DNA of 64,000 nucleotides from a phage, in sequence record NC_094493.1, one strand, 5' to 3'. How positions within the stretch are numbered: the stretch's first letter is position 1; each line of letters begins with the position of its first letter. The translations under genes and the position numbers were made by a program. A model generated the notes under the pieces. It was not told where the DNA came from, did no database searches, and worked only from the letters and a program-made list of their open reading frames with translations. Shown here one piece after another: positions 26,110-36,613 of this stretch.

Positions 26110-26871
26110 TTAAAGTTCCATAAAGTTTTCTACAGTTTCAATAAATACTTTATCAGAGAAAGCGTCAACAGCACCGTTAAACCATACAGGGATCCCGCGA
26201 TCCTCATATTGATAAAGGTCGCTACGTGAAATGCCACTTCCATCTGCACTCTGCGAATCATACTTGTTTACAATCAGCAGTTTTGTGCCTTTACAAGTAG
26301 CAGGAAACAATTCCCAGTTAAAATTAATAACTGTGTTAGAACAACCTACCAGGATAACCATATCATTGCTTGTGAGAGATGTCAACAGGTCATACATGTC
26401 TGTATACTTAGGAGCAACCTCACCGAAGAACACTACATTGGGCTTAACCCAGGTATACTTACCTGTATCTACCTCCGTGTATCCGATATTTTTAATTACA
26501 TCATTACCTTCAGCATCTTCGTAGGTGATTTCAGGCAAATACCCGTGGACATGTAAAATATCTTCATGTTTTACACCAGCACGCTCCAGCAAATCATCTA
26601 CATTGGTGGTAAGGTTGATCACACGACCAGACCAGCGGGAATACCACTCAGCGATCCGAAGATGTGCAAGGTTAGGATCAACACTGCCCAGAGCTACACG
26701 ACGTGCATTGTAAAAGTCATGCACCTTATAGTAGTTCTTGGCAAAGGTGTGGATGTTGCACACCTCATCTATGCTGAAATTCTCCCACATTGCAGTACTA
26801 CCAGATCGGAAAGTGGGAATACCAGATTCAGCGCTCAAACCAGCACCGGAGATAATAATCAGTCGTCGCAT
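26110..26871 (-). CDS. Sir2-family NAD-dependent protein
   Basis: 253 aa; sirtuin NAD-binding GAGLSAESGIPTFR, TTNVDDL and catalytic HG; no zinc-ribbon Cys pairs seen. Confidence 0.8.
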   Translation of the reverse strand: MRRLIIISGAGLSAESGIPTFRSGSTAMWENFSIDEVCNIHTFAKNYYKVHDFYNARRVALGSVDPNLAHLRIAEWYSRWSGRVINLTTNVDDLLERAGVKHEDILHVHGYLPEITYEDAEGNDVIKNIGYTEVDTGKYTWVKPNVVFFGEVAPKYTDMYDLLTSLTSNDMVILVGCSNTVINFNWELFPATCKGTKLLIVNKYDSQSADGSGISRSDLYQYEDRGIPVWFNGAVDAFSDKVFIETVENFMEL

Positions 26872-26879
26872 AAGTGCCC

Positions 26880-27230
26880 TCAGTAGATGTTTTGTTTAAT
26901 CTCTATTCCAAACTTTTTAAACGAGTCAGCTGCAAGCATGAATTTACGAGCCGCTGATGGATTAGAAGTATGTACGAAAATCTTCACGTTGTCAACCACG
27001 GGAGGCTTACCGAATACAAATTTTTCCTCCAACATGGATAGGCAATCGTATCCTTCGAATACTTCTCCTAGGTCGTTGTCCATATGCCACTCAGAAACGC
27101 GTCTGTAGAGCTTTCCCTTATCGTTAATAAAATCCATAAACTCGGAGGAATTCTTCAGCCAAACAGCGTCTGGGAGCCCGTAATTTGACGGATCTCTTAA
27201 GTCATCTAGCCACACAATCAACTTCTTCAT
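26880..27230 (-). CDS. small alpha/beta protein with receiver/flavodoxin-like acidic motifs
   Basis: 116 aa; LIVWLDDLRDP, HMDNDLGE, IFVHTSNP; ATGA-coupled to rnlA and 9 nt upstream of the Sir2 gene. Confidence 0.35.
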   Translation of the reverse strand: MKKLIVWLDDLRDPSNYGLPDAVWLKNSSEFMDFINDKGKLYRRVSEWHMDNDLGEVFEGYDCLSMLEEKFVFGKPPVVDNVKIFVHTSNPSAARKFMLAADSFKKFGIEIKQNIY

Positions 27231-28162
27231 TGCATATAGTTCTCGTTGTGGAAATAGTAATCAAGTATCTCACGGCGTTCCTGCTCCAGGAGGCAGTTCC
27301 ACACATCCTCTGTGTAATTGCTACGAATGAAGTTTACCATGCCGTAAAACTCTTCGTCAACACGTTTAAAGATATCATCATCCCAAATCTTCCAAGCTTT
27401 ACCCCTCATTACGGCCTTCCGTGCCAGATAGTATGGAGACTTGATCTTCAGCTGCAGATCATAAGGGTAGTAAGGCTTACGAATCATATACCCTTCACCT
27501 CTTGTTTCTGCAGCTAATTCTTTTGCATAGCTGAACGGAATTTCACGCACAGTGTGAGGACGTTTTGCACCAAGGTATTTGGCAATCCCATCTAAAGCTG
27601 CTTCTGGTAGCATTATTCCAGAATCATTATATCTGCAACCTATCAAATATGCGCCATGATCTTCCTGAACAATATGCGGATCTGAAGGGTGACAAATTTC
27701 AAACATGAATGTCATGTTTTCATTGCCCATAACCTTCTTGATAAGATCTAAATTACCACATTGCTCTTGGATGGTTTCCTTTGCAAGGTTACAATATGGA
27801 GAATCAAGAGACCCGGTTGTTGAGAACAATAGTTCACCTTTATGAGATGATACCACACCGAGGAATCCGTTCTTTTTCTCTACCGCAGTAACAAGTTTAC
27901 TGTCCGGTAGGTTGGTGGAGTTTTCTCCTAAGTTGAATACTTTTGTGAAAGGCCATGCCACAACATTCCCCTCATTGCCAACAACAATACCTCGGCACTC
28001 CAGTAAACGCGGAGACAAATGCCACAGATTGTTGTAGAATACTTTTCTGGCATATTTATAGATCTTTAATCCAAGATCTGGATAATACCGACTGGTTACA
28101 AGACCTTTGTCTACTAGGTCATCTGCATTAAAATACTTCATCATACGTTCCTCATTTGTCAT
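27227..28162 (-). CDS. rnlA: RNA ligase 1 (T4 RnlA-like)
   Basis: 311 aa; RLLECRGIVV...WPFTKVFNLGEN parallels T4 Rnl1 ALECRGIMF...FFNLNEN; motif I lysine in VEKKNG. Confidence 0.8.
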   Translation of the reverse strand: MTNEERMMKYFNADDLVDKGLVTSRYYPDLGLKIYKYARKVFYNNLWHLSPRLLECRGIVVGNEGNVVAWPFTKVFNLGENSTNLPDSKLVTAVEKKNGFLGVVSSHKGELLFSTTGSLDSPYCNLAKETIQEQCGNLDLIKKVMGNENMTFMFEICHPSDPHIVQEDHGAYLIGCRYNDSGIMLPEAALDGIAKYLGAKRPHTVREIPFSYAKELAAETRGEGYMIRKPYYPYDLQLKIKSPYYLARKAVMRGKAWKIWDDDIFKRVDEEFYGMVNFIRSNYTEDVWNCLLEQERREILDYYFHNENYMQ

Positions 28163-28262: not shown

Positions 28263-28673
28263 ATGTCTAAAATGCTATATATCGTGCGTGGTCTGCCAGG
28301 GTCTGGCAAATCAACACTGGCAAATGCGCTATCTTTAGAAGGTCTGTATCCACATTTTGAGAACGACATGTTCTGGTATGACGATGACGGCAATTACAAC
28401 TGGGATGCAAGTAAAGTAACACTCGCAGCAAAATGGTGCAAAGATAACGTAGAAGATATGATGCGTATGGGATACGACCGTATCGTGGTAAGTAATACGT
28501 TTACAAAAGAAAAACATGTGCAGGAATATGTTGACATGGCAATCAGTCACGGGTATAGTTATACCGTGATCGTGGTTGAAAACCGCCACGGTAATAAAAG
28601 CATTCATGATGTTCCAGACAAGGTTGTGGATCGTATGGAACGCCAGCTTAAAAACTGCATTAAACTTAAATGA
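28263..28673 (+). CDS. P-loop kinase, polynucleotide 5'-kinase-like
   Basis: 136 aa from ATG after GGAGGG; Walker A RGLPGSGKST as in T4 Pnk kinase domain GCPGSGKST. Confidence 0.65.
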   Translation: MSKMLYIVRGLPGSGKSTLANALSLEGLYPHFENDMFWYDDDGNYNWDASKVTLAAKWCKDNVEDMMRMGYDRIVVSNTFTKEKHVQEYVDMAISHGYSYTVIVVENRHGNKSIHDVPDKVVDRMERQLKNCIKLK

Positions 28674-28680
28674 GGAATGT

Positions 28681-29235
28681 ATGAAATACTTTGTAACAAG
28701 CGACACACACTTTCTCCACCAGCGGGTCATGGAGTTTGATTCATGTCAAAAACACAGATCTCAGTATGATCACAATCTTGACAGTATGAATGCGGGAATC
28801 ATCACCAAGTGGAACTCTGTTGTGTCACCTGCAGACACTGTGTTTCACTTGGGAGATATTGCGTGCACTAATGATAAGAATATCAACAAATTGCTCCCAG
28901 ATGTTCTAAATATGTTGAACGGACATATTATTCTTGTTCGTGGTAACCATGACACAAGGACGACTGTCAGAATTATGAAAGAGTTCGGTCATGAGGTTGT
29001 AGATTATTACGAGCTTCGCCACAACAAGAATTTGATCTGTATGAGCCATTACCAGTTTGCAAAGTGGAACAGAAAGCCTCACGGATCAGTCCAACTGTTC
29101 GGTCATGCTCACGGAACCACACAGCAGTTGTTTGGCAGGCAGTTTGATGTCGGTTGGGATGTGTGGGGGAGACTCTTACCATTAGAAGAGGCATACCGTA
29201 TTGCAATGAGTCTTGCTATTGACAGCGGGGAGTAA
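28681..29235 (+). CDS. calcineurin-like metallophosphatase
   Basis: 184 aa from ATG 7 nt after kinase stop with GAGGA RBS; motifs SDTHF, GDIA, GNHD, GHAH. Confidence 0.75.
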   Translation: MKYFVTSDTHFLHQRVMEFDSCQKHRSQYDHNLDSMNAGIITKWNSVVSPADTVFHLGDIACTNDKNINKLLPDVLNMLNGHIILVRGNHDTRTTVRIMKEFGHEVVDYYELRHNKNLICMSHYQFAKWNRKPHGSVQLFGHAHGTTQQLFGRQFDVGWDVWGRLLPLEEAYRIAMSLAIDSGE

Positions 29236-31735: not shown

Positions 31736-32074
31736 ATGGCGGATACAACTAAAAAGCGTCGCCGTAGAGGCAGACCTCTGAAAGAGGAGTCCAACGCCAT
31801 TCAGCTAGAGAAGAACATCCTTGATATGAAGGAATCTTTTATAGCGATGGTTCCAGAAGCTCACAAAGTTTTAAGAGAGCTGATGTTGGACCCGAAAACC
31901 AAACAAAATATTCGTCAAAGCATTGCAGAGTATGTTCTTGATAAGGCAGACCGAATGCAGGAAGAATATGATGAGATGTTTGGTGAAGAGGAAGAGGTGG
32001 TAGTGGAAGAGGCTGAAAAACCAGCACCTTTTATGCCATTTACTACAGAAATACAGCCTGTTAGCAATAGCTAA
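31736..32074 (+). CDS. small DNA-binding protein with AT-hook-like motif and acidic tail
   Basis: 112 aa from ATG; N-terminal KKRRRRGRPLKEE, C-terminal EEYDEMFGEEEEVVVEE. Confidence 0.4.
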   Translation: MADTTKKRRRRGRPLKEESNAIQLEKNILDMKESFIAMVPEAHKVLRELMLDPKTKQNIRQSIAEYVLDKADRMQEEYDEMFGEEEEVVVEEAEKPAPFMPFTTEIQPVSNS

Positions 32075-32083
32075 AATATTTTC

Positions 32084-32112
32084 TTGACAAACTTTGCTTA
32101 ACAGTGTAATAT
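32084..32112 (+). promoter_or_regulatory. sigma70 consensus promoter of tRNA cluster
   Basis: TTGACA-17nt-TAATAT about 60 nt upstream of first tRNA. Confidence 0.6.
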
Positions 32113-32170
32113 TGTAAACATGGTCTCCCACCTTTTCTGGCGGCTAAGGTGTAAAAGAAAGCCACCCAGT

Positions 32171-32245
32171 GCCCTGTTAGCTTAGTGGATAAAGCAGCGG
32201 CCTTCTAAGCCGTTGACACTGGTTCGAGTCCAGTACGGGGTGCCA
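32171..32245 (+). tRNA. tRNA-Arg (anticodon TCT)
   Basis: cloverleaf drawn by hand: acceptor gccctgt/acggggt, anticodon loop cttctaa, T-loop ttcgagt, encoded CCA. Confidence 0.75.
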
Positions 32246-32249
32246 AATT

Positions 32250-32336
32250 GGGGAGTTATCCCGTAGAGGTAGCGGTGTAGACTGTAAATCTATTGTCATT
32301 GCGACTCGGGTGGTTCGACTCCACCACTCCCCACCA
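32250..32336 (+). tRNA. tRNA-Tyr (anticodon GTA), long variable arm
   Basis: acceptor ggggagt/actcccc, anticodon loop ctgtaaa, T-arm ggtgg-ttcgact-ccacc, CCA; 87 nt. Confidence 0.75.
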
Positions 32337-32450
32337 AATTTATATTTTTAGATGCATAAATAATACAGATAATGGCATTGATATTTATCGTCGTTTATAC
32401 TAGTCACTAACTGCTCGAAAATCAGTGTCATTATCAGTATAATTTATAAA

Positions 32451-32541
32451 GGAGGGTAGGGAGCAATGGTGCTCAAGCGGTCTTGAAAACCGTCCCGTTG
32501 AGGATGACTCGATGATGGTTCGATTCCATTACTCTCCGCCA
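32451..32541 (+). tRNA. tRNA-Ser (anticodon TGA), long variable arm
   Basis: acceptor ggagggt/actctcc, anticodon stem gcggt/accgt with loop cttgaaa, T-loop ttcgatt, CCA; about 91 nt. Confidence 0.7.
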
Positions 32542-32639
32542 CATTGTTGACCTTGTAATTAAGCGAAAGCCGGAAGCAGAACCGGATTATCAAATGTTAC
32601 AGTCGTCATCGCCGACTAGCAACATGGTCAACATACTGA

Positions 32640-32736
32640 GCTAGGTAAGCCCTTTGGCAAGGGCGAGGATTTTTAATCCTGAAAATAGACGAGGTAGTCG
32701 TTGAATACATAGGTGGTTCGATTCCATCACCTAGCA
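32640..32736 (+). tRNA. atypical tRNA-like gene (possible tRNA-Lys TTT variant, about 97 nt)
   Basis: acceptor gctaggt/acctagc, D-arm gccc...gggc, T-arm ggtgg-ttcgatt-ccatc; anticodon arm aggatttttaatcct ambiguous; about 30-nt extra arm; no CCA. Confidence 0.45.
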
Positions 32737-32743
32737 CCTTTTT

Positions 32744-32819
32744 GCTGATGTAGCACAATCGGTAGTGCAATTGATTTGTAATCAATAGGTTGTAGGTTCA
32801 AGTCCTGCCATCAGCACCA
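32744..32819 (+). tRNA. tRNA-Thr (anticodon TGT)
   Basis: acceptor gctgatg/catcagc, anticodon stem attga/tcaat with loop tttgtaa, T-loop ttcaagt, CCA. Confidence 0.75.
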
Positions 32820-32820
32820 A

Positions 32821-32895
32821 GGCCCTGTAGCTGGAAGGTTCAAGCAAGCGACTCATAATCGCCAGACGGTGGTTCAATTCCACCCAGGGCCACCA
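32821..32895 (+). tRNA. tRNA-Met/Ile2 (anticodon CAT), elongator-type
   Basis: acceptor ggccctg/cagggcc with paired 1-72, anticodon loop ctcataa, T-arm ggtgg-ttcaatt-ccacc, CCA. Confidence 0.7.
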
Positions 32896-32906
32896 AATAG
32901 TAAATA

Positions 32907-32983
32907 CTCCGCGTAGCTCAGCTTGGTAGAGCGCCTGATTTGGGATCAGGAGGTCGAGTGTTCGAATCACTCCGTGGAGACCA
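32907..32983 (+). tRNA. tRNA-Pro (anticodon TGG)
   Basis: acceptor ctccgcg/cgtggag, anticodon stem cctga/tcagg with loop tttggga, T-loop ttcgaat, CCA. Confidence 0.75.
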
Positions 32984-33029
32984 CTTTCAGTTATACTTTA
33001 AACATATACAAACAAAAGGAACCTTTAAA

Positions 33030-33299
33030 ATGTATACACTTAAAATTGTAGAGCGTGTAAATCCAACTCATACCGTAGATTTTCGTGACGATTTCAATCC
33101 TCTGGCTGTAAATCTTCGAGAGTCATATCATGAACTCAGCTGCGATGCAGTGGTGGTCTTTTTTGAAGACAACTCTGAAGGGGCGGTAGCTTGTGTTGTT
33201 GATAGTGAGCAGAAGTTTTATATTTACAGAGATGTAGATGCATACTTGATGAATGAAAATGCAGTTACTGTTAGAATCATCCACCGAGTGCCTCGATAA
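33030..33299 (+). CDS. hypothetical protein
   Basis: 89 aa from first ATG after tRNA-Pro (track ORF 32940 starts inside the tRNA). Confidence 0.35.
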   Translation: MYTLKIVERVNPTHTVDFRDDFNPLAVNLRESYHELSCDAVVVFFEDNSEGAVACVVDSEQKFYIYRDVDAYLMNENAVTVRIIHRVPR

Positions 33300-33803: not shown

Positions 33804-34087
33804 GAGTTGCTGCACTGTTTATTGTGTGCTTGTTATTGTGTGGGTGTGCAACCAGCGTTGAGAGAGAATACAAGATTGACCCTCCAGATGTAGGAAGGTT
33901 GATTGTTAAACCCCCGGAAGGTGCCATGAAACCACCTGCTAAAGCTATACCTTTAAAGAAAGGTGCGCCAGATGCGGTGAATTCTGGCATTATGAGGGAT
34001 AATAATCTGTCTTGTAGCAATGATAGAGCTAAATTGATCATTTTGCAAGACTATATTAGAACACTGTTTCCAAAGGAGAGAGGTTAA
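33800..34087 (+). CDS. o-spanin (Rz1-like lipoprotein)
   Basis: 95 aa; signal peptide with lipobox LLLCGCAT, Pro-rich mature part. Confidence 0.55.
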   Translation: MRVAALFIVCLLLCGCATSVEREYKIDPPDVGRLIVKPPEGAMKPPAKAIPLKKGAPDAVNSGIMRDNNLSCSNDRAKLIILQDYIRTLFPKERG

Positions 34088-34830
34088 TGTCTAAGATTTA
34101 CGGACCGTGTTCTGAAAAGCAGAAGATGATCCTAGAAAACGATGCAGATATTTTGGTAATCGGCGGTGCCGCAGGGTCTGGCAAGTCGTTCCTCTTGCAG
34201 TTGATGCCGCTTAAAATTATTGATGACCCCCACAGCTCTGTGGTTATGTTCCGAAGAACAACCCCACAGTTGGAAGGTGAGGGTGGACTATGGCCTAAAG
34301 CAGTAGCTATTTATAGTGATCTGCCTGAAAACATTAAGCCAAAGTTCAGAGAGAAGGATCATAAGTTCATTTTTCCACGGTTTGATCCGAACACTGGCAA
34401 GTGGGATAGGAGCAAAAAGGGAGCTGTTGTAAAATACTGCCACATGGAGTATGTACAAGATAAGCTTAACCATCAAGGGCTTGAGTACACCATGGTTTGC
34501 TTCGATGAGGGAACGCAGTTCGAATGGGAGCAGATAGACTATCTGATGTCTCGTCTGCGATCTCAGTCAAAGTATCCATCAAGAATGGTTATCAGCTGTA
34601 ACCCAGATTCAGAACACATGCTTGCCAAACTGGTTAGATGGTGGTTGGACGATGAAGGGTATCCAGATCCGGAGAAATGCGGTAAGAAAAGATATTTTAT
34701 CCGACGCGACGGTGAATTTATCTGGGGAGACTCTAAAGAAGAGTTGATAGAGAAATACACCACGGTTAACGGACTGGGTGTGGAGATCAAGCCAAGACCG
34801 TTGTCATTCTCGTTTATAGGCGCAACCATT
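34087..34830 (+). CDS. terminase large subunit, exon 1 (ATPase domain)
   Basis: Walker A LVIGGAAGSGKSF, Walker B MVCFDEGTQ; proposed 5' splice site after T34829/34830, in-frame TGA at 34834 lies in intron. Confidence 0.8.
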
Positions 34831-35830
34831 AAATGATAGTGGCTTCGTGCAGAAATGCACGTCGAATAACTTCGTTAATTGCTGGAAAATCCGATTGCTA
34901 AACGGACAATCAGCAGCTATAATTACCCTTCCGAACCTGTAGTAGGGAGATGTTTGAAATGAAAAATTTAGGCTTTTTAGGCTACAATCATTATTGTGCT
35001 ACATACGATGGCAGAATTTACAGTCTGTATTCTAATAAATTCCTCCATCCTAATGTGCAGAAAAAGACTGGCTATGCTATGGTAACTTTGTGCGAGGACG
35101 GTAAAAAGTTCCAAGTGCTCGTTCACAGAGTGATTGCTATGACTTTTGTTGATAATGATAATCCCAGCGTGAAAACTCAAGTAAATCACCTTGATGGCAA
35201 TAAGTTGAATAACGCCGCATGGAACCTTGAGTGGACAACACCTGAGGAAAACACACATCATGCTCATGAAATGGGACTTAAAAAGGACTATGTCAATAAA
35301 TACAGGTCCCTAGATGATGCCACTGCTCTTGAAATATGTAGACTGTTAGAGCAAGGTGCAAGGGTAAAAGACATTTGTGAAATGTTTGGTGTCAATCAAC
35401 CACTTGTAAGTGGTATAAAGAATGGCTCAGTATACCCAGATATTTCTAAAGAGTTTAACTTTAGAAAAGTGCCAACCTCTAATAGGATAAGTGAGCACAA
35501 GATAATAGGTATCTGCGAGGATCTTAGTGATAGGGTTTTGTGTGTAAATAAAATAGCTAAGAAGTGGGGCGTAAGTTTTAGTGTTGTTAAAGGAATAAAA
35601 GACCGTAAGACTTACACCTATATTTCAAACAATTACGATTGGTAATGTAGTTCAACGACTATCCCGAGAGGGAGTAGGGCGCAAGCTTATGGCGCTCGAA
35701 AAGCGAAGCACCCTGAGATGGGTGGTGATATAGTCTACTCTGCATGGTAACATGCAGCGGCACGTAATGGTGCGGAGGGTGGTGTTGCGACCACCTTTGA
35801 ATATAAGGATTCGATAATCCTGTCTGCTTG
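34831..35830 (+). mobile_element. group I intron with embedded HNH homing endonuclease gene
   Basis: ordered core elements P aattgctggaaaa (about 34877), Q aatcagcagc (about 34908), R gttcaacgacta (about 35649), S gatatagtc (about 35726); GACTA/TAGTC form P7; P9 hairpins downstream; boundaries +/-3 nt. Confidence 0.8.
34959..35645 (+). CDS. HNH homing endonuclease (intron-encoded)
   Basis: 228 aa from second ATG (RBS GGGAGA); HNH motif VNHLDGNKLNNAAWNLEWTTPEENTHH; ORF sits between Q and R. Confidence 0.85.
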   Translation: MKNLGFLGYNHYCATYDGRIYSLYSNKFLHPNVQKKTGYAMVTLCEDGKKFQVLVHRVIAMTFVDNDNPSVKTQVNHLDGNKLNNAAWNLEWTTPEENTHHAHEMGLKKDYVNKYRSLDDATALEICRLLEQGARVKDICEMFGVNQPLVSGIKNGSVYPDISKEFNFRKVPTSNRISEHKIIGICEDLSDRVLCVNKIAKKWGVSFSVVKGIKDRKTYTYISNNYDW

Positions 35831-36613
35831 AGAGACAACCCAGAATACCTTGCTTTCCTCGAAGGTCTACCAGAGCTGGAAAAAGCTCAGCTTCTCCATG
35901 GTAACTGGTTTGCAAAGCCTGAGGGTGCAAACTATTTTCAAAGATCTTTCCTTCGTGATGCCGATAGAGTACCTCTTGGGTCAGTATCTTGCAGGGCATG
36001 GGATAAGGCAGGAACCGAGAGAACTTCCGGTAATAAATTTCCTGACTTTACTGCCAGTATTAAGGTAAGTAAAGATAGCGACGGCTTTTATTACCTGTCC
36101 GGTGATTATTGTCCTGAGAACGTGGATGACGGGAGGTATTCCACAGGTCTGGAAGGCAAGTTCTGTAAAAAGGCTGGTGAACGAGATGTGATCATCAGGA
36201 AACAGGCGCAGTTCGATGGTGATGATTGCATAATCGTCTTCTCTGTGGACCCAGGGCAGGCAGGTAAGAGTGAGTTCTTAACCTCCTCCAGATCCTTGCT
36301 TGCCGAAGGGTTCAGGGTTGAAGAAGACCCAATGCCTTCCAACAAGTCTAAACTGACAAGGTTCTCACCTTTTGCCAATCTTGCCCAACAAGGAATGGTG
36401 AGGATTGTAAAATCCAGTTTCCATCCTGATACTCTGGAAGCATTTCTGACTGAACTTGAAAAATTCAACGGGGAAAGATCAACATTTAACAGAAAAGACG
36501 ACTGGGCCGACTGTGTAGCTTCTGCGATTAATTTCCTAGAGAAAGAGGAGGTAGCACTTCCTTGTGTGATTCCATCAATCTCATCACCTTCTATGTTCAA
36601 GCGTTTTATCTAA
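35831..36613 (+). CDS. terminase large subunit, exon 2 (nuclease domain)
   Basis: frame open without start/RBS; LLHGNW, VDPGQAGKSE and KDDWADCV motifs of terminase RNase H-like nuclease. Confidence 0.8.
   Translation, partial: RDNPEYLAFLEGLPELEKAQLLHGNWFAKPEGANYFQRSFLRDADRVPLGSVSCRAWDKAGTERTSGNKFPDFTASIKVSKDSDGFYYLSGDYCPENVDDGRYSTGLEGKFCKKAGERDVIIRKQAQFDGDDCIIVFSVDPGQAGKSEFLTSSRSLLAEGFRVEEDPMPSNKSKLTRFSPFANLAQQGMVRIVKSSFHPDTLEAFLTELEKFNGERSTFNRKDDWADCVASAINFLEKEEVALPCVIPSISSPSMFKRFI

What the first reader, a model, noticed from the sequence alone, without database searches (positions are those of the whole stretch)
32084..32983. Seven-gene tRNA cluster behind a perfect sigma70 promoter, next to the RNA-repair locus
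Seen: TTGACA-17-TAATAT promoter followed by tightly packed tRNA-Arg(TCT), Tyr(GTA), Ser(TGA), a Lys-like atypical tRNA, Thr(TGT), Met/Ile(CAT) and Pro(TGG), most with encoded CCA. Established: phage tRNAs compensate codon usage and can replace host tRNAs destroyed by anticodon nucleases (tRNA-Lys by PrrC, tRNA-Arg by colicin D, tRNA-Tyr by colicin E5). Inference: the set (Arg-AGA, Lys, Tyr) together with the nearby ligase, kinase and phosphatase suggests a two-layer anti-tRNA-cleavage strategy of replacement plus repair.
Basis: partly seen in the sequence, partly recalled or inferred. Interest (0 to 1): 0.55.

Follow-up and report, generated by a model that had tools for sequence, protein, structure and literature searches.

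The report
Known rV5 phage tRNA operon
This is the already published tRNA gene cluster of an rV5-type E. coli phage, which mostly supplies tRNAs for codons the phage over-uses; its seventh "Lys-like" gene belongs to an undescribed phage-only family of odd tRNA-shaped RNAs.

Summary
Seven tRNA-type genes lie at 32171-32983 (+) behind TTGACA-17-TAATAT, 2.9 kb from an RNA-repair gene set. The window is an rV5-like Vequintavirus (99-100% identical to GenBank records). The promoter and six tRNAs were published in 2013, so the object is already known. "Perfect" is overstated: the -10 hexamer matches 4 of 6. The CAT gene is tRNA-Ile2.

Codon supply explains most of the set. AGA, AGG, ACA and AUA are the four codons most enriched in phage versus E. 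coli, and phage Arg, Thr and Ile2 tRNAs read them. Tyr and the Lys-like gene fit worst. They, with Thr, match tRNAs now known to be cut by PrrC, PARIS and Septu/retron-Eco7. "Replacement plus repair" is therefore plausible but untested here, and it was already proposed in 2023.

The new part is the seventh gene. It belongs to a phage-only tRNA-like family with a 6-bp D stem, a 4-nt D loop and a long extra arm. All 21 scored pairs are kept in 22 homologues. Its anticodon loop differs between genera: UUU, UAU, UCA with A33, or 8-nt loops. Its role as a Lys decoder is uncertain.

The Ser spacer holds a structured element shared with lambda and P7.

The parts
32084..32112 (+). Sigma-70-type promoter TTGACA-17-TAATAT (the P(tRNA) of rV5)
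   Evidence: Found by the consensus scan with 10 of 12 matches. Annotated in NC_011041. Both hexamers are invariant in all variants collected. No transcription start site data were available.
32171..32245 (+). tRNA-Arg(UCU), which reads AGA and AGG; CCA encoded
   Evidence: 67.8 bits. The anticodon loop CUUCUAA is identical to E. coli argU. AGA and AGG are the two most phage-enriched codons.
32250..32336 (+). tRNA-Tyr(GUA), class II, A73, CCA encoded
   Evidence: 29.9 bits. The loop is identical to tyrU. The variable-arm loop is AUUGC against ACA in the host, but GUC48-A49 is kept.
32356..32447 (+). Long AT-rich hairpin in the Tyr-Ser spacer. It contains G-U pairs, so it is specific to the + strand RNA. 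Its 3' arm holds a promoter-like TCGAAA-17-TATAAT at 32415-32443. It is a possible processing site.
   Evidence: Fold z-score -4.45, with 0 of 200 shuffles folding as well. Promoter-like site from the scan. One variant changes a G-U pair to A-U.
32451..32541 (+). tRNA-Ser(UGA), class II, G73, CCA encoded
   Evidence: The loop is identical to serT. It is about 90% identical to an unannotated tRNA-Ser(UGA) in phage P7.
32545..32633 (+). Conserved structured 3' trailer element of tRNA-Ser, made of an outer stem plus two hairpins. It is shared with lambda and with P7-like plasmid prophages.
   Evidence: 83-88% identity to lambda/HK630 and P7. The outer stem covaries completely between lineages, and the second hairpin has a U-A to G-C change. 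No Rfam family matches.
32640..32738 (+). Non-canonical 99-nt tRNA-like RNA. It has a 7-bp acceptor stem, A8-A9, a 6-bp D stem with the 4-nt loop UGGC, a 4-bp anticodon stem with loop UUUUUAA (UUU), a roughly 30-nt extra region with a hairpin, a canonical T arm and A73. CCA is not encoded.
   Evidence: (35.5 bits). The family alignment of 22 homologues is 100% paired, with 9 pairs showing double changes. The family model scores it at 107.5 bits against 26 bits or less for ordinary tRNAs.
32744..32819 (+). tRNA-Thr(UGU); CCA encoded
   Evidence: 76.8 bits. It has U32 where the host has C32, and it keeps U36AAUCA41. ACA is the third most enriched codon.
32821..32895 (+). tRNA-Ile2(CAU), which would read AUA after lysidine modification; CCA encoded
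   Evidence: 60 bits. The acceptor start GGCCC and the anticodon arm GCGA-CUCAUAA-UCGC are identical to E. coli ileX, and C4-G69 and C5-G68 are present. tRNAscan-SE calls it Ile2-CAT in the Gotham record.
32907..32983 (+). tRNA-Pro(UGG); CCA encoded
   Evidence: 66.4 bits. 63 of 77 positions are identical to T4 tRNA-Pro. The gene is interrupted by an HNH endonuclease gene in navn-type relatives.
27227..28162 (-). T4 Rnl1-family RNA ligase
   Evidence: Pfam PF09511, E=9e-15. phrog_562, E=4e-66. Annotated as rV5 gp078.
26880..27230 (-). cREC_REC protein (predicted cyclic-phosphate-processing receiver domain), overlapping the ligase stop codon
   Evidence: Pfam PF20274, E=1.5e-14. Operon linkage of this domain to RNA ligases is described in PMC7824862.
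28263..28673 (+). P-loop kinase resembling a polynucleotide 5'-kinase
   Evidence: Pfam AAA_33, E=1.7e-10. phrog_505 'polynucleotide kinase', E=4.7e-10.
28681..29235 (+). Metallophosphoesterase, a candidate 3'-end-healing phosphatase
   Evidence: Pfam Metallophos, E=5e-6. phrog_547, E=5e-51. PDB chain 1xm7, E=7e-11.

Best explanation
This is the tRNA operon of an rV5-like Vequintavirus. Inferred from the promoter motif and the lack of a terminator: host sigma-70 RNA polymerase starts about 50 nt upstream of tRNA-Arg and makes one polycistronic precursor. Inferred from what is established for E. coli and T4 tRNA maturation: RNase P cuts the 5' ends, endonucleases cut in the two structured spacers, and exonucleases trim to the encoded CCA. 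The seventh RNA would instead need trimming and the CCA-adding enzyme, as T4 tRNAs without encoded CCA do. Host synthetases charge the tRNAs, and host TilS converts C34 of the CAU tRNA so that it reads AUA.

Shown by codon counts: the main effect is to raise the supply of tRNAs for codons the phage uses far more than E. coli does, namely AGA/AGG, ACA and AUA, then UCA/UCU, CCU/CCA and AAG. A secondary, non-exclusive benefit is inferred and untested. Tyr, Thr and the Lys-like RNA would act as spare copies of the host tRNAs that E. coli defence nucleases destroy, alongside the nearby ligase, kinase and phosphatase repair genes.

The seventh gene is a member of a phage-only, structurally conserved tRNA-like family. 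In the rV5 clade it carries a Lys-type loop (UUU) together with A73. It is therefore most likely charged with Lys there, in a phage that has lost the canonical Lys tRNAs of its relatives.
For: Identity of the phage: 99-100% to FFH2 and rV5, with the promoter and six tRNAs annotated there.

Codon supply: the phage/E. coli frequency ratios are AGA 11.2, AGG 9.1, ACA 3.75 and AUA 3.4, ranks 1-4 of 61. AAG is rank 6, CCU rank 7 and UCA rank 13. Cognate codons against the rest give p=0.0026, and finding at least 3 of the top 4 by chance has p=0.0037. The rV5 paper reported the same trend.

The set overlaps T4's Arg, Ile, Thr, Ser and Pro tRNAs, and the Pro genes are clearly homologous.

The seventh gene is a real structure: 462 of 462 cells are paired and 9 pairs show compensatory changes. 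The family model separates members from ordinary tRNAs.

Only the rV5 clade combines UUU with A73, the two E. coli LysRS identity elements by established knowledge. All other genera have U73. Relatives carry Lys(CUU) and Lys(UUU) genes that rV5 lacks.
Against: There is no expression, processing or charging evidence for any of these RNAs. Tyr codons are only about 1.4-fold enriched and AAA is not enriched (1.09), so supply alone explains Tyr weakly and Lys only through AAG.

The seventh RNA's body is far from any known Lys tRNA: A8, a 6-bp D stem, a 4-bp anticodon stem, and 8-nt and 10-nt single-stranded linkers. Its homologues mostly carry loops that should decode poorly (A33, or 8-nt loops), which argues that decoding is not the family's conserved role.

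tRNA-Pro is naturally disrupted in some relatives, so not every member of the operon is needed. My E. coli codon sample is 64 genes from two regions, including highly expressed ones, and the phage ORFs were called mechanically.
Confidence: 0.6

Rival explanations
1. The cluster exists mainly as a counter-defence: nuclease-insensitive or simply abundant phage Tyr, Thr, Lys-like and Arg tRNAs replace host tRNAs destroyed by PrrC/RloC, PARIS or Septu/retron-Eco7, while the Rnl1, kinase, phosphatase and cREC enzymes reseal what can be resealed.
For: Tyr and the Lys-like RNA are the members least explained by codon use. [quoted passage not shown] Here the Lys-like and Thr genes are adjacent in every genus, and they are the only two whose loops differ from the host's, with C32 changed to U. 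The Lys-like RNA has C41, which matches the paper's cleavage-reducing Mut2, and it lacks the U16-U17 D loop that AriB contacts. Phage tRNA-Tyr rescues infection from retron-Eco7 and Septu. A complete end-healing and sealing gene set lies 3 kb away, and cREC homologues lie near the odd RNA in distant relatives.
Against: The Arg, Tyr, Ser, Ile2 and Pro loops are identical to the host's. The phage Thr keeps the full AriB site U36AAUC|A41 and U16. The phage Tyr keeps GUC48-A49. Proximity in a syntenic phage genome is weak evidence of coupling. No phenotype is known for rV5. The strongest statistical signal is codon supply.
Confidence: 0.3
2. The seventh RNA is not a decoder at all. It is a tRNA-shaped decoy or regulator whose anticodon hairpin is re-targeted in each genus. 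It could work as a competitive inhibitor of an anticodon nuclease, as a sponge for a tRNA-binding host factor, or as a processing signal.
For: The stems and two single-stranded linkers (GAAAA.. and AAUACAUA) are conserved. The loop, by contrast, switches between UUUUUAA, UUUAUAA, C/U-A-UCA-AA with A33, and 8-nt CCAUCCAG-type loops. In the large relatives it coexists with canonical Gly(UCC) and Lys tRNAs, so it is redundant there as a decoder. In the rV5 clade the hairpin GA-UUUUUAA-UC copies host tRNA-Lys at 10 of 11 positions, including the AriB motif UAAUC. The PARIS paper itself raises inhibition by competition. T4's tRNA operon also carries two stable tRNA-like RNAs of unknown role.
Against: U73 with CCA is conserved in most genera, and A73 appears together with UUU in rV5, which looks like selection for aminoacylation. 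The T arm and the GG of the D loop are kept as in working tRNAs. There is no direct evidence for any partner.
Confidence: 0.2
3. Part of the cluster is evolutionary baggage: mobile tRNA modules picked up by recombination and kept without much selective value.
For: The tRNA-Ser gene plus its 3' element is a module shared with P7-like plasmid prophages, and a relic of it sits in lambda. tRNA-Pro is split by an HNH endonuclease gene in navn-type phages, which are still viable isolates. The Avunavirus copies of the odd RNA have degenerate 3' ends (CACA, UACA) and a variable discriminator base.
Against: The whole operon is 99-100% conserved in more than 100 Vequintavirus genomes. Compensatory changes show purifying selection on structure. 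The anticodons match the phage's most enriched codons.
Confidence: 0.1

Closest known systems
tRNA cluster of Escherichia phage rV5 (NC_011041; Kropinski et al. 2013, PMC3606486)
   Same: It is the same locus at 99.3% identity. The promoter P(tRNA) and the Arg, Tyr, Ser, Thr, 'Met' and Pro genes are annotated, and the paper argues codon compensation for AGA, ACA and CCA.
   Different: The paper counts six tRNAs and calls the CAU gene tRNA-Met. The seventh gene and the two structured spacers are not described there. Later GenBank records label the seventh gene inconsistently, as tRNA-Lys, tRNA-OTHER, tRNA-TERM or ???(atcc).
Phage T4 tRNA operon with its Rnl1/Pnkp repair of PrrC-cut tRNA-Lys
   Same: Both have a polycistronic tRNA operon with Arg(UCU), Ile(CAU), Thr(UGU), Ser(UGA) and Pro(UGG). 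T4's operon also holds extra stable tRNA-like RNAs of unknown role (rnaC, rnaD). Both genomes encode an Rnl1-family ligase.
   Different: T4 has no Tyr or Lys gene. The rV5 odd RNA does not align to rnaC or rnaD and they do not hit its family model. End-healing here is split into a separate P-loop kinase and a metallophosphoesterase, with a cREC protein, instead of T4's fused kinase-HAD phosphatase.
Phage T5/T6 tRNAs that neutralise PARIS, retron-Eco7, Septu and PrrC
   Same: The phage encodes isoacceptors of the very tRNAs those systems cut (Lys UUU, Thr UGU, Tyr GUA) behind a strong early-type promoter.
   Different: No rescue has been shown for rV5. Its Thr and Tyr genes keep the host cleavage-site sequences. 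Its 'Lys' member is structurally non-canonical, whereas T5 tRNA-Lys is an ordinary class I tRNA with point changes (U39A, A41C, U16C).
tRNA-Sec (Rfam RF01852) and other non-canonical long-arm tRNAs (allo-tRNAs, PMC5389517)
   Same: It shares a 6-bp D stem with a 4-nt loop, the loss of the U8-A14 type core, and a long extra arm. Henunavirus homologues carry the loop C-A-UCA-AA, one base away from the tRNA-Sec loop CUUCAAA, and score 37-39 bits on RF01852.
   Different: It has a 7/5 rather than 8/5 acceptor/T arrangement, U73 or A73 rather than G73, a 4-bp anticodon stem, and long conserved single-stranded linkers. It falls below Rfam's threshold of 47 bits. The rV5 copy has UUU rather than UCA. 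Allo-tRNAs are 8/4 or 9/3.

Membership tests
Canonical bacterial-type tRNA genes (Rfam RF00005) | A cloverleaf that scores at or above the curated threshold of 29 bits | tested here: met
   Thr 76.8, Arg 67.8, Pro 66.4, CAU 60.0, odd RNA 35.5 and Tyr 29.9 bits. Ser is below threshold on RF00005 but is called by ARAGORN and has an anticodon arm identical to serT.
tRNA-Ile2 (lysidine-dependent AUA reader), for the CAT gene | A CAU anticodon in the ileX-type anticodon arm, plus the acceptor pairs C4-G69 and C5-G68 used by TilS, and A73 | tested here: met
   The first five acceptor bases (GGCCC) and the arm GCGA-CUCAUAA-UCGC are identical to E. coli ileX, with 58 of 76 positions identical overall. 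tRNAscan-SE calls it Ile2-CAT in MT682716. The TilS determinants come from established knowledge.
tRNA-Ile2 (lysidine-dependent AUA reader), for the CAT gene | C34 is actually modified to lysidine and the tRNA is charged with Ile | not testable with these tools
   This needs mass spectrometry or tRNA-seq of infected cells.
tRNA-Lys(UUU), for the 99-nt gene | A 7-nt anticodon loop with U33, U34-U35-U36 and a purine at 37, plus the discriminator A73 | tested here: met
   The loop is UUUUUAA and A73 is present. The loop differs from host lysT only at C32, which is U here.
tRNA-Lys(UUU), for the 99-nt gene | Class I architecture: U8, a 3-4 bp D stem with a 7-11 nt loop, a 5-bp anticodon stem and a 4-5 nt variable loop | tested here: not met
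   It has A8, a 6-bp D stem with a 4-nt loop, a 4-bp anticodon stem plus a G-G mismatch, and a roughly 30-nt extra region with a hairpin.
tRNA-Lys(UUU), for the 99-nt gene | The identity is conserved in orthologues | tested here: not met
   Orthologues carry UAU, UCA with A33, or 8-nt loops with UCC or GCC, and have U73.
tRNA-Sec (RF01852), for the 99-nt gene | A 6-bp D stem with a 4-nt loop, and a long variable arm | tested here: met
   D arm GCCCUU-UGGC-AAGGGC. The variable region has the hairpin ACGA-GGUAG-UCGU.
tRNA-Sec (RF01852), for the 99-nt gene | A UCA anticodon, an 8/5 acceptor/T arrangement, G73, and a score at or above Rfam's 47 bits | tested here: not met
   The rV5 copy has UUU, a 7/5 arrangement and A73. 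Its best Rfam hit is the general tRNA model. Only the Henunavirus homologues reach 37-39 bits on RF01852.
T4-type tRNA repair pathway (Rnl1 + Pnkp) | An Rnl1-family ATP-dependent RNA ligase | tested here: met
   PF09511, E=9e-15, above the cut-off. phrog_562, E=4e-66.
T4-type tRNA repair pathway (Rnl1 + Pnkp) | A polynucleotide 5'-kinase P-loop domain | tested here: inconclusive
   AAA_33, E=1.7e-10, and phrog_505 'polynucleotide kinase', E=4.7e-10. There is no PDB relative by sequence. Substrate specificity was not shown.
T4-type tRNA repair pathway (Rnl1 + Pnkp) | A 3'-phosphatase of the HAD (DxDxT) type fused to the kinase | tested here: not met
   The phosphatase candidate is a separate metallophosphoesterase (PF00149/PF12850). 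This resembles bacterial Pnkp and lambda phosphatase rather than T4 Pnkp (PMC2190708 abstract).
Phage tRNAs acting as counter-defence (the T5/T6 paradigm) | The phage encodes isoacceptors of host tRNAs that a defence nuclease cuts | tested here: met
   Tyr(GUA), Thr(UGU) and a UUU-loop RNA are present. The targets are listed in PMC12409363, PMC11555353 and PMC13096335.
Phage tRNAs acting as counter-defence (the T5/T6 paradigm) | The phage copy differs from the host at the nuclease's determinants | tested here: inconclusive
   The odd RNA has C41 and no U16-U17. Thr keeps U39, C40, A41 and U16. Tyr keeps GUC48-A49. The Arg and Tyr loops are identical to the host's.
Phage tRNAs acting as counter-defence (the T5/T6 paradigm) | The phage tRNA rescues infection or relieves toxicity | not testable with these tools
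   This needs plaque assays on hosts carrying PARIS, PrrC, RloC, Septu or retron-Eco7.
Codon-compensating phage tRNA sets | The tRNAs decode codons used more by the phage than by the host | tested here: met
   The cognate codons rank 1, 3, 4, 13, 18, 22 and 33 of 61, with p=0.0026.

The most novel reading that the evidence does not exclude
The 99-nt gene represents an undescribed, phage-only class of tRNA-shaped RNA with a Sec-like D arm, a long arm and two conserved single-stranded linkers. Its anticodon hairpin is swapped between genera. In the rV5 clade it has been remodelled to imitate host tRNA-Lys (loop, lower stem and A73). There it would act either as a nuclease-proof Lys donor or as a decoy that titrates Lys- and Thr-directed anticodon nucleases such as PARIS AriB, PrrC or RloC. 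In other genera it would have a different target, including a UGA-reading, A33-bearing form.
Probability: 0.15. Interest if true: 0.7.

Novelty: already known. Interest (0 to 1): 0.3.

Why it matters
As a tRNA operon, this adds nothing beyond the 2013 rV5 paper and the 2023-2026 work on phage tRNAs against tRNA-cutting defences. Two things could still matter.

First, rV5-type phages are common therapeutic and biocontrol candidates. Knowing whether their Tyr, Thr and Lys-like RNAs and the adjacent repair genes protect against PARIS, PrrC/RloC or Septu would help predict host range.

Second, the seventh gene gives a compact natural example of a tRNA scaffold with a Sec-like D arm that changes its anticodon loop and discriminator base between genera. 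If it is charged and decodes, it widens the known structural limits of a working bacterial tRNA. If it is not, it would be a candidate RNA decoy against tRNA-targeting immunity.

Tried and rejected
- **Homology of the odd RNA to T4 rnaC or rnaD.** There is no alignment and no hit to the family model.
- **Filing the odd RNA as tRNA-Sec.** It fails on acceptor length, discriminator, anticodon and Rfam threshold.
- **A known Rfam family for either spacer or for the lambda/P7 element.** None was found at E<=5 on either strand. The known self-cleaving ribozyme families in Rfam are therefore excluded as far as Rfam can see.
- **A bacterial origin for the odd RNA.** The conserved 22-mer has no match in 185,579 bacterial and archaeal genomes.
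- **PDB sequence relatives of the ligase and kinase.** None were found.
- **Collecting relatives through a flanking protein.** Only 2 loci came back.
- **One gapped DNA pattern was mis-specified and found nothing**. It was corrected.
- **ORF74 as a tRNA-related enzyme.** I considered this because the gene sits inside tRNA clusters in all genera. It has no Pfam domain and looks like a small basic-then-acidic protein with an RGRP motif, so I left it unexplained.
- **Mention of rV5 in the supplementary files of van den Berg et al.** None was found.
- **A paper describing the odd RNA or phage tRNA decoys.** None was found in the searchable library.
- **A first Pfam call and a first script failed** on coordinates and file names.
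Full report
**What is there.** ARAGORN finds seven tRNA-type genes on the + strand between 32171 and 32983: Arg(TCT), Tyr(GTA), Ser(TGA), an unassigned 99-nt gene, Thr(TGT), CAT and Pro(TGG). Rfam's tRNA model reaches its threshold for six of them. Ser is seen only by ARAGORN and, below threshold, by the tRNA-Sec model. TTGACA-17-TAATAT lies at 32084-32112. First, the -10 hexamer matches the consensus at 4 of 6 positions, so the promoter is good but not perfect, and promoter-like sites as a class are not enriched here (10 against 6.8 +/- 2.5). Second, two spacers of 114 and 98 nt interrupt the otherwise tight packing. Third, the CAT gene can be assigned.

**Where it comes from.** The 2-kb region is 100% identical to Escherichia phage FFH2 and to several GenBank records labelled 'Campylobacter phage'. 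It is 99.3% identical to phage rV5. The rV5 record annotates this very promoter as P(tRNA), together with Arg, Tyr, Ser, Thr, 'Met' and Pro. The 2013 paper reports six tRNAs and argues codon compensation. Other records label the seventh gene tRNA-OTHER, tRNA-Lys(TTT), tRNA-TERM or ???(atcc). The object is therefore already known.

**The neighbouring repair genes.** The following genes lie upstream:

| Window position | Strand | Assignment | Evidence |
|---|---|---|---|
| 27227-28162 | - | T4 Rnl1-family RNA ligase | PF09511 9e-15; phrog_562 4e-66 |
| 26880-27230 | - | cREC_REC protein | 1.5e-14 |
| 26110-26871 | - | Sir2 | 7e-28 |
| 28263-28673 | + | P-loop kinase (polynucleotide kinase-like) | AAA_33 1.7e-10; phrog_505 4.7e-10 |
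| 28681-29235 | + | Metallophosphoesterase | |

Iyer et al. 2021 predicted the cREC domain to open 2',3'-cyclic phosphates and found it linked to RNA ligases in operons. The healing-and-sealing toolkit is thus credible at the family level. It differs from T4's in using a separate metallophosphoesterase instead of a fused HAD phosphatase. It lies 2.9-3.9 kb from the tRNA promoter, and six small ORFs lie between them on the + strand.

**Codon supply.** I counted codons in 74 mechanically chosen non-overlapping phage ORFs from the window (17,663 codons) and in 64 annotated E. coli K-12 genes (21,697 codons). The phage/host frequency ratios are:

| Codon | Ratio | Rank of 61 | Phage tRNA that reads it |
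|---|---|---|---|
| AGA | 11.2 | 1 | Arg(UCU) |
| AGG | 9.1 | 2 | Arg(UCU) |
| ACA | 3.75 | 3 | Thr(UGU) |
| AUA | 3.4 | 4 | CAU tRNA |
| AAG | 2.5 | 6 | (UUU, by wobble) |
| CCU | 2.3 | 7 | (UGG, by wobble) |
| UCA | 1.9 | 13 | Ser(UGA) |
| CCA | 1.45 | 18 | Pro(UGG) |
| UAC | 1.37 | 22 | Tyr(GUA) |
| AAA | 1.09 | 33 | UUU loop |

The seven cognate codons are enriched against the rest (Mann-Whitney p=0.0026). Finding at least three of the top four by chance has p=0.0037. The CAU tRNA shares its first five acceptor bases and its whole anticodon arm with E. coli ileX, including C4-G69 and C5-G68. It is called Ile2 by tRNAscan-SE in one record. It is therefore an AUA reader, like T4's. The set overlaps T4's Arg, Ile, Thr, Ser and Pro tRNAs, and the Pro genes are plainly homologous. 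Codon supply is thus the best-supported function for Arg, Thr and Ile2. It is reasonable for Ser and Pro, and weak for Tyr and for AAA.

**The counter-defence reading.** Van den Berg et al. [quoted passage not shown] Experiments have since shown three things. [quoted passage not shown] Retron-Eco7 and Septu cut tRNA-Tyr at C48/A49 of the variable arm and are overcome by phage tRNA-Tyr. A supplied tRNA-Lys overcomes PrrC. The rV5 members least explained by codon use, Tyr and the Lys-like RNA, are therefore isoacceptors of known targets, as is Thr.

The sequence comparison gives mixed support. The loops of Arg, Tyr, Ser, Ile2 and Pro are identical to the host's. Thr and the Lys-like RNA differ only at position 32, where C is replaced by U. 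The phage Thr keeps U39-C40-A41 and U16, and the phage Tyr keeps GUC48-A49. Only the Lys-like RNA has C41 and a D loop without U16-U17. I found no experimental work on rV5-type phages and these systems. The reading is plausible and not exclusive of codon supply, but nothing here shows it.

**The seventh gene.** It folds as a cloverleaf with these parts:
- a 7-bp acceptor stem and A8-A9;
- a 6-bp D stem with the 4-nt loop UGGC;
- a 4-bp anticodon stem closed by a G-G mismatch, with loop UUUUUAA;
- an 8-nt linker (GAAAAUAG), a 4-5 bp hairpin and a 10-nt linker (UGAAUACAUA);
- a normal T arm (GGUGG-UUCGAUU-CCAUC) and A73.

Searches of phage records, IMG/VR and metagenomes gave 22 distinct homologues in Vequintavirus, Avunavirus, Seunavirus, Mydovirus, Henunavirus and unclassified contigs. 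Four more contigs came from a looser pattern. None came from 185,579 bacterial genomes.

On the alignment, all 462 cells of 21 scored pairs are standard pairs. Nine pairs show changes on both sides. The covariation score is 0.379, against 0.153 in shuffles and at most 0.105 when partners are slid. A covariance model built from the family scores members at 79-115 bits, including two that were not used to build it. Ordinary tRNAs score at most 26 bits. The structure is therefore real and selected.

The anticodon loop, however, is not conserved:
- UUUUUAA in the rV5 clade;
- UUUAUAA in Avunavirus;
- C/U-A-UCA-AA, with A instead of the near-universal U33, in Henunavirus and several metagenomic lineages. 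There the RNA is annotated as a suppressor and scores 37-39 bits on tRNA-Sec;
- 8-nt loops (CCAUCCAG, CCAGCCAG, CCCUCAAG and others) in Seunavirus, Mydovirus and 4MG.

Most members have U73 and an encoded CCA. Only the rV5 clade has A73, and it has lost the A of CCA.

Two inferences pull in opposite directions. The poor-decoder loops, and the redundancy with canonical Gly and Lys tRNAs in the large relatives, suggest that decoding is not the family's conserved job. On the other hand, the joint appearance of UUU and A73 points the other way. By established knowledge these are the two E. coli LysRS identity elements, and rV5 is a phage that lacks the Lys(CUU) and Lys(UUU) genes of its relatives. 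That suggests the rV5 copy has been remodelled into a Lys acceptor. I put the decoder reading ahead of the decoy reading for rV5, but not by much. T4's rnaC and rnaD, the classic unexplained RNAs of a phage tRNA operon, are not homologous to it.

**The spacers.** The Tyr-Ser spacer folds into a long hairpin at 32356-32447 (z=-4.45) with G-U pairs that work only on the + strand RNA. Its 3' arm holds a promoter-like TCGAAA-17-TATAAT.

The spacer between Ser and the odd RNA is 83-88% identical to a stretch of lambda/HK630 lying between orf64 and S. It is also similar to a stretch of the P7 tRNA operon. The element has three parts:
- an outer stem whose sequence differs completely between lineages yet always pairs (GTTGACC/GGTCAAC, AGGATCA/TGATCCT, ATCATG/CATGAT, GTTGTGCTG/CAGCACAAC, TTGGCT/AGCCAA);
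- an invariant hairpin CCGG-AAGCAGAA-CCGG;
- a second hairpin with a U-A to G-C exchange.

No Rfam family matches it. In P7 it follows an unannotated tRNA-Ser(UGA) that is about 90% identical to the rV5 one. Lambda keeps what looks like a relic of that tRNA's 3' half. The element occurs in 426 of 5,426 complete E. coli genomes, in prophages and P1-like plasmids, and is never annotated. It is thus a mobile 'tRNA-Ser plus trailer' module whose trailer function is unknown.

**Verdict.** The cluster, its promoter and the neighbouring repair genes are real but already described. Codon supply is the best-supported function. The replacement-plus-repair idea is a published hypothesis that fits Tyr, Thr and the Lys-like RNA but remains untested for this phage. 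The only unexplained item is the seventh gene's family, which deserves a direct test of charging and of interaction with Lys- and Thr-directed nucleases.

Noticed in passing
window 32545-32633; L004:1201-1287 (lambda/HK630); L005:1501-1566 (P7): An unannotated structured element follows tRNA-Ser and is shared with lambda (between orf64 and S) and with P7-like plasmid prophages. Its outer stem covaries fully between lineages. No Rfam family matches. It is present in 426 of 5,426 complete E. coli genomes.
   Followed up: partly
L005:1391-1477 (phage P7, NC_050152 about 72257-72343): P7 carries an unannotated tRNA-Ser(UGA) about 90% identical to the rV5 tRNA-Ser, directly upstream of the shared element. 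A sub-threshold STnc100 sRNA hit (43 bits) lies just downstream at L005:1587-1702.
   Followed up: partly
window 32356-32447: A long AT-rich RNA hairpin (z=-4.45) lies between tRNA-Tyr and tRNA-Ser, with G-U pairs that work only on the + strand. A promoter-like TCGAAA-17-TATAAT sits in its 3' arm at 32415-32443. It may be an RNase III-type processing site or an internal promoter.
   Followed up: partly
L006:1731-2083 (phage navn; the same two-piece match appears in 'Campylobacter phage' C7, C9 and A112b): In some Vequintaviruses the tRNA-Pro gene is split after its D arm by a 353-bp insertion encoding a 113-aa HNH endonuclease. Seven bases of the anticodon stem are lost, so tRNA-Pro appears dispensable.
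   Followed up: yes
window 31736-32074 (+): ORF74, just upstream of the tRNA promoter, belongs to a protein family found only in Vequintavirinae. It has an invariant basic N-terminus (RRRGRPLKEESNAIQLEKN, an AT-hook-like RGRP motif) and an acidic tail. In every other genus its homologue sits inside the tRNA cluster, between Cys and Tyr. It has no Pfam domain.
   Followed up: partly
window 26110-27230 (-): Sir2 and a cREC_REC (cyclic-phosphate-processing receiver) gene sit directly downstream of the RNA ligase on the same strand. cREC homologues also lie about 6 kb from the odd RNA in distant metagenomic relatives (L035, L055).
   Followed up: partly
L016:2424-2500, L017:2412-2488, L018:2411-2487, L007:1419-1494: In Seunavirus, Mydovirus and 4MG a second gene lies between tRNA-Thr and the odd RNA. 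ARAGORN calls it differently in each phage: Ile(gat), Arg(gcg), ???(agat) or ???(ga). This suggests another tRNA with an unstable or atypical anticodon loop. It is absent from the rV5 window.
   Followed up: no
GenBank MG065644-MG065682 (hits H1-H4, H12, H13 and others): About 19 records named 'Campylobacter phage', with host Campylobacter jejuni, are 99-100% identical to E. coli Vequintaviruses over this locus and carry no annotation. The host labels look doubtful.
   Followed up: no
window about 34087-36613 (+): The large terminase gene downstream is annotated in rV5 as joined from three pieces with an HNH endonuclease ORF inside. The window shows the matching split ORFs (34087-34836, 34950-35645, 35828-36613), with the HNH ORF at a different offset from the rV5 record.
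   Followed up: no
window 32606-32785 (-), 32782-32970 (-), 32940-33299 (+): These mechanical ORFs overlap the tRNA genes, and some GenBank records annotate them as hypothetical proteins (for example PMBT16 and A6-1). They are almost certainly not genes. The real downstream ORF starts at the ATG at 33030.
   Followed up: partly
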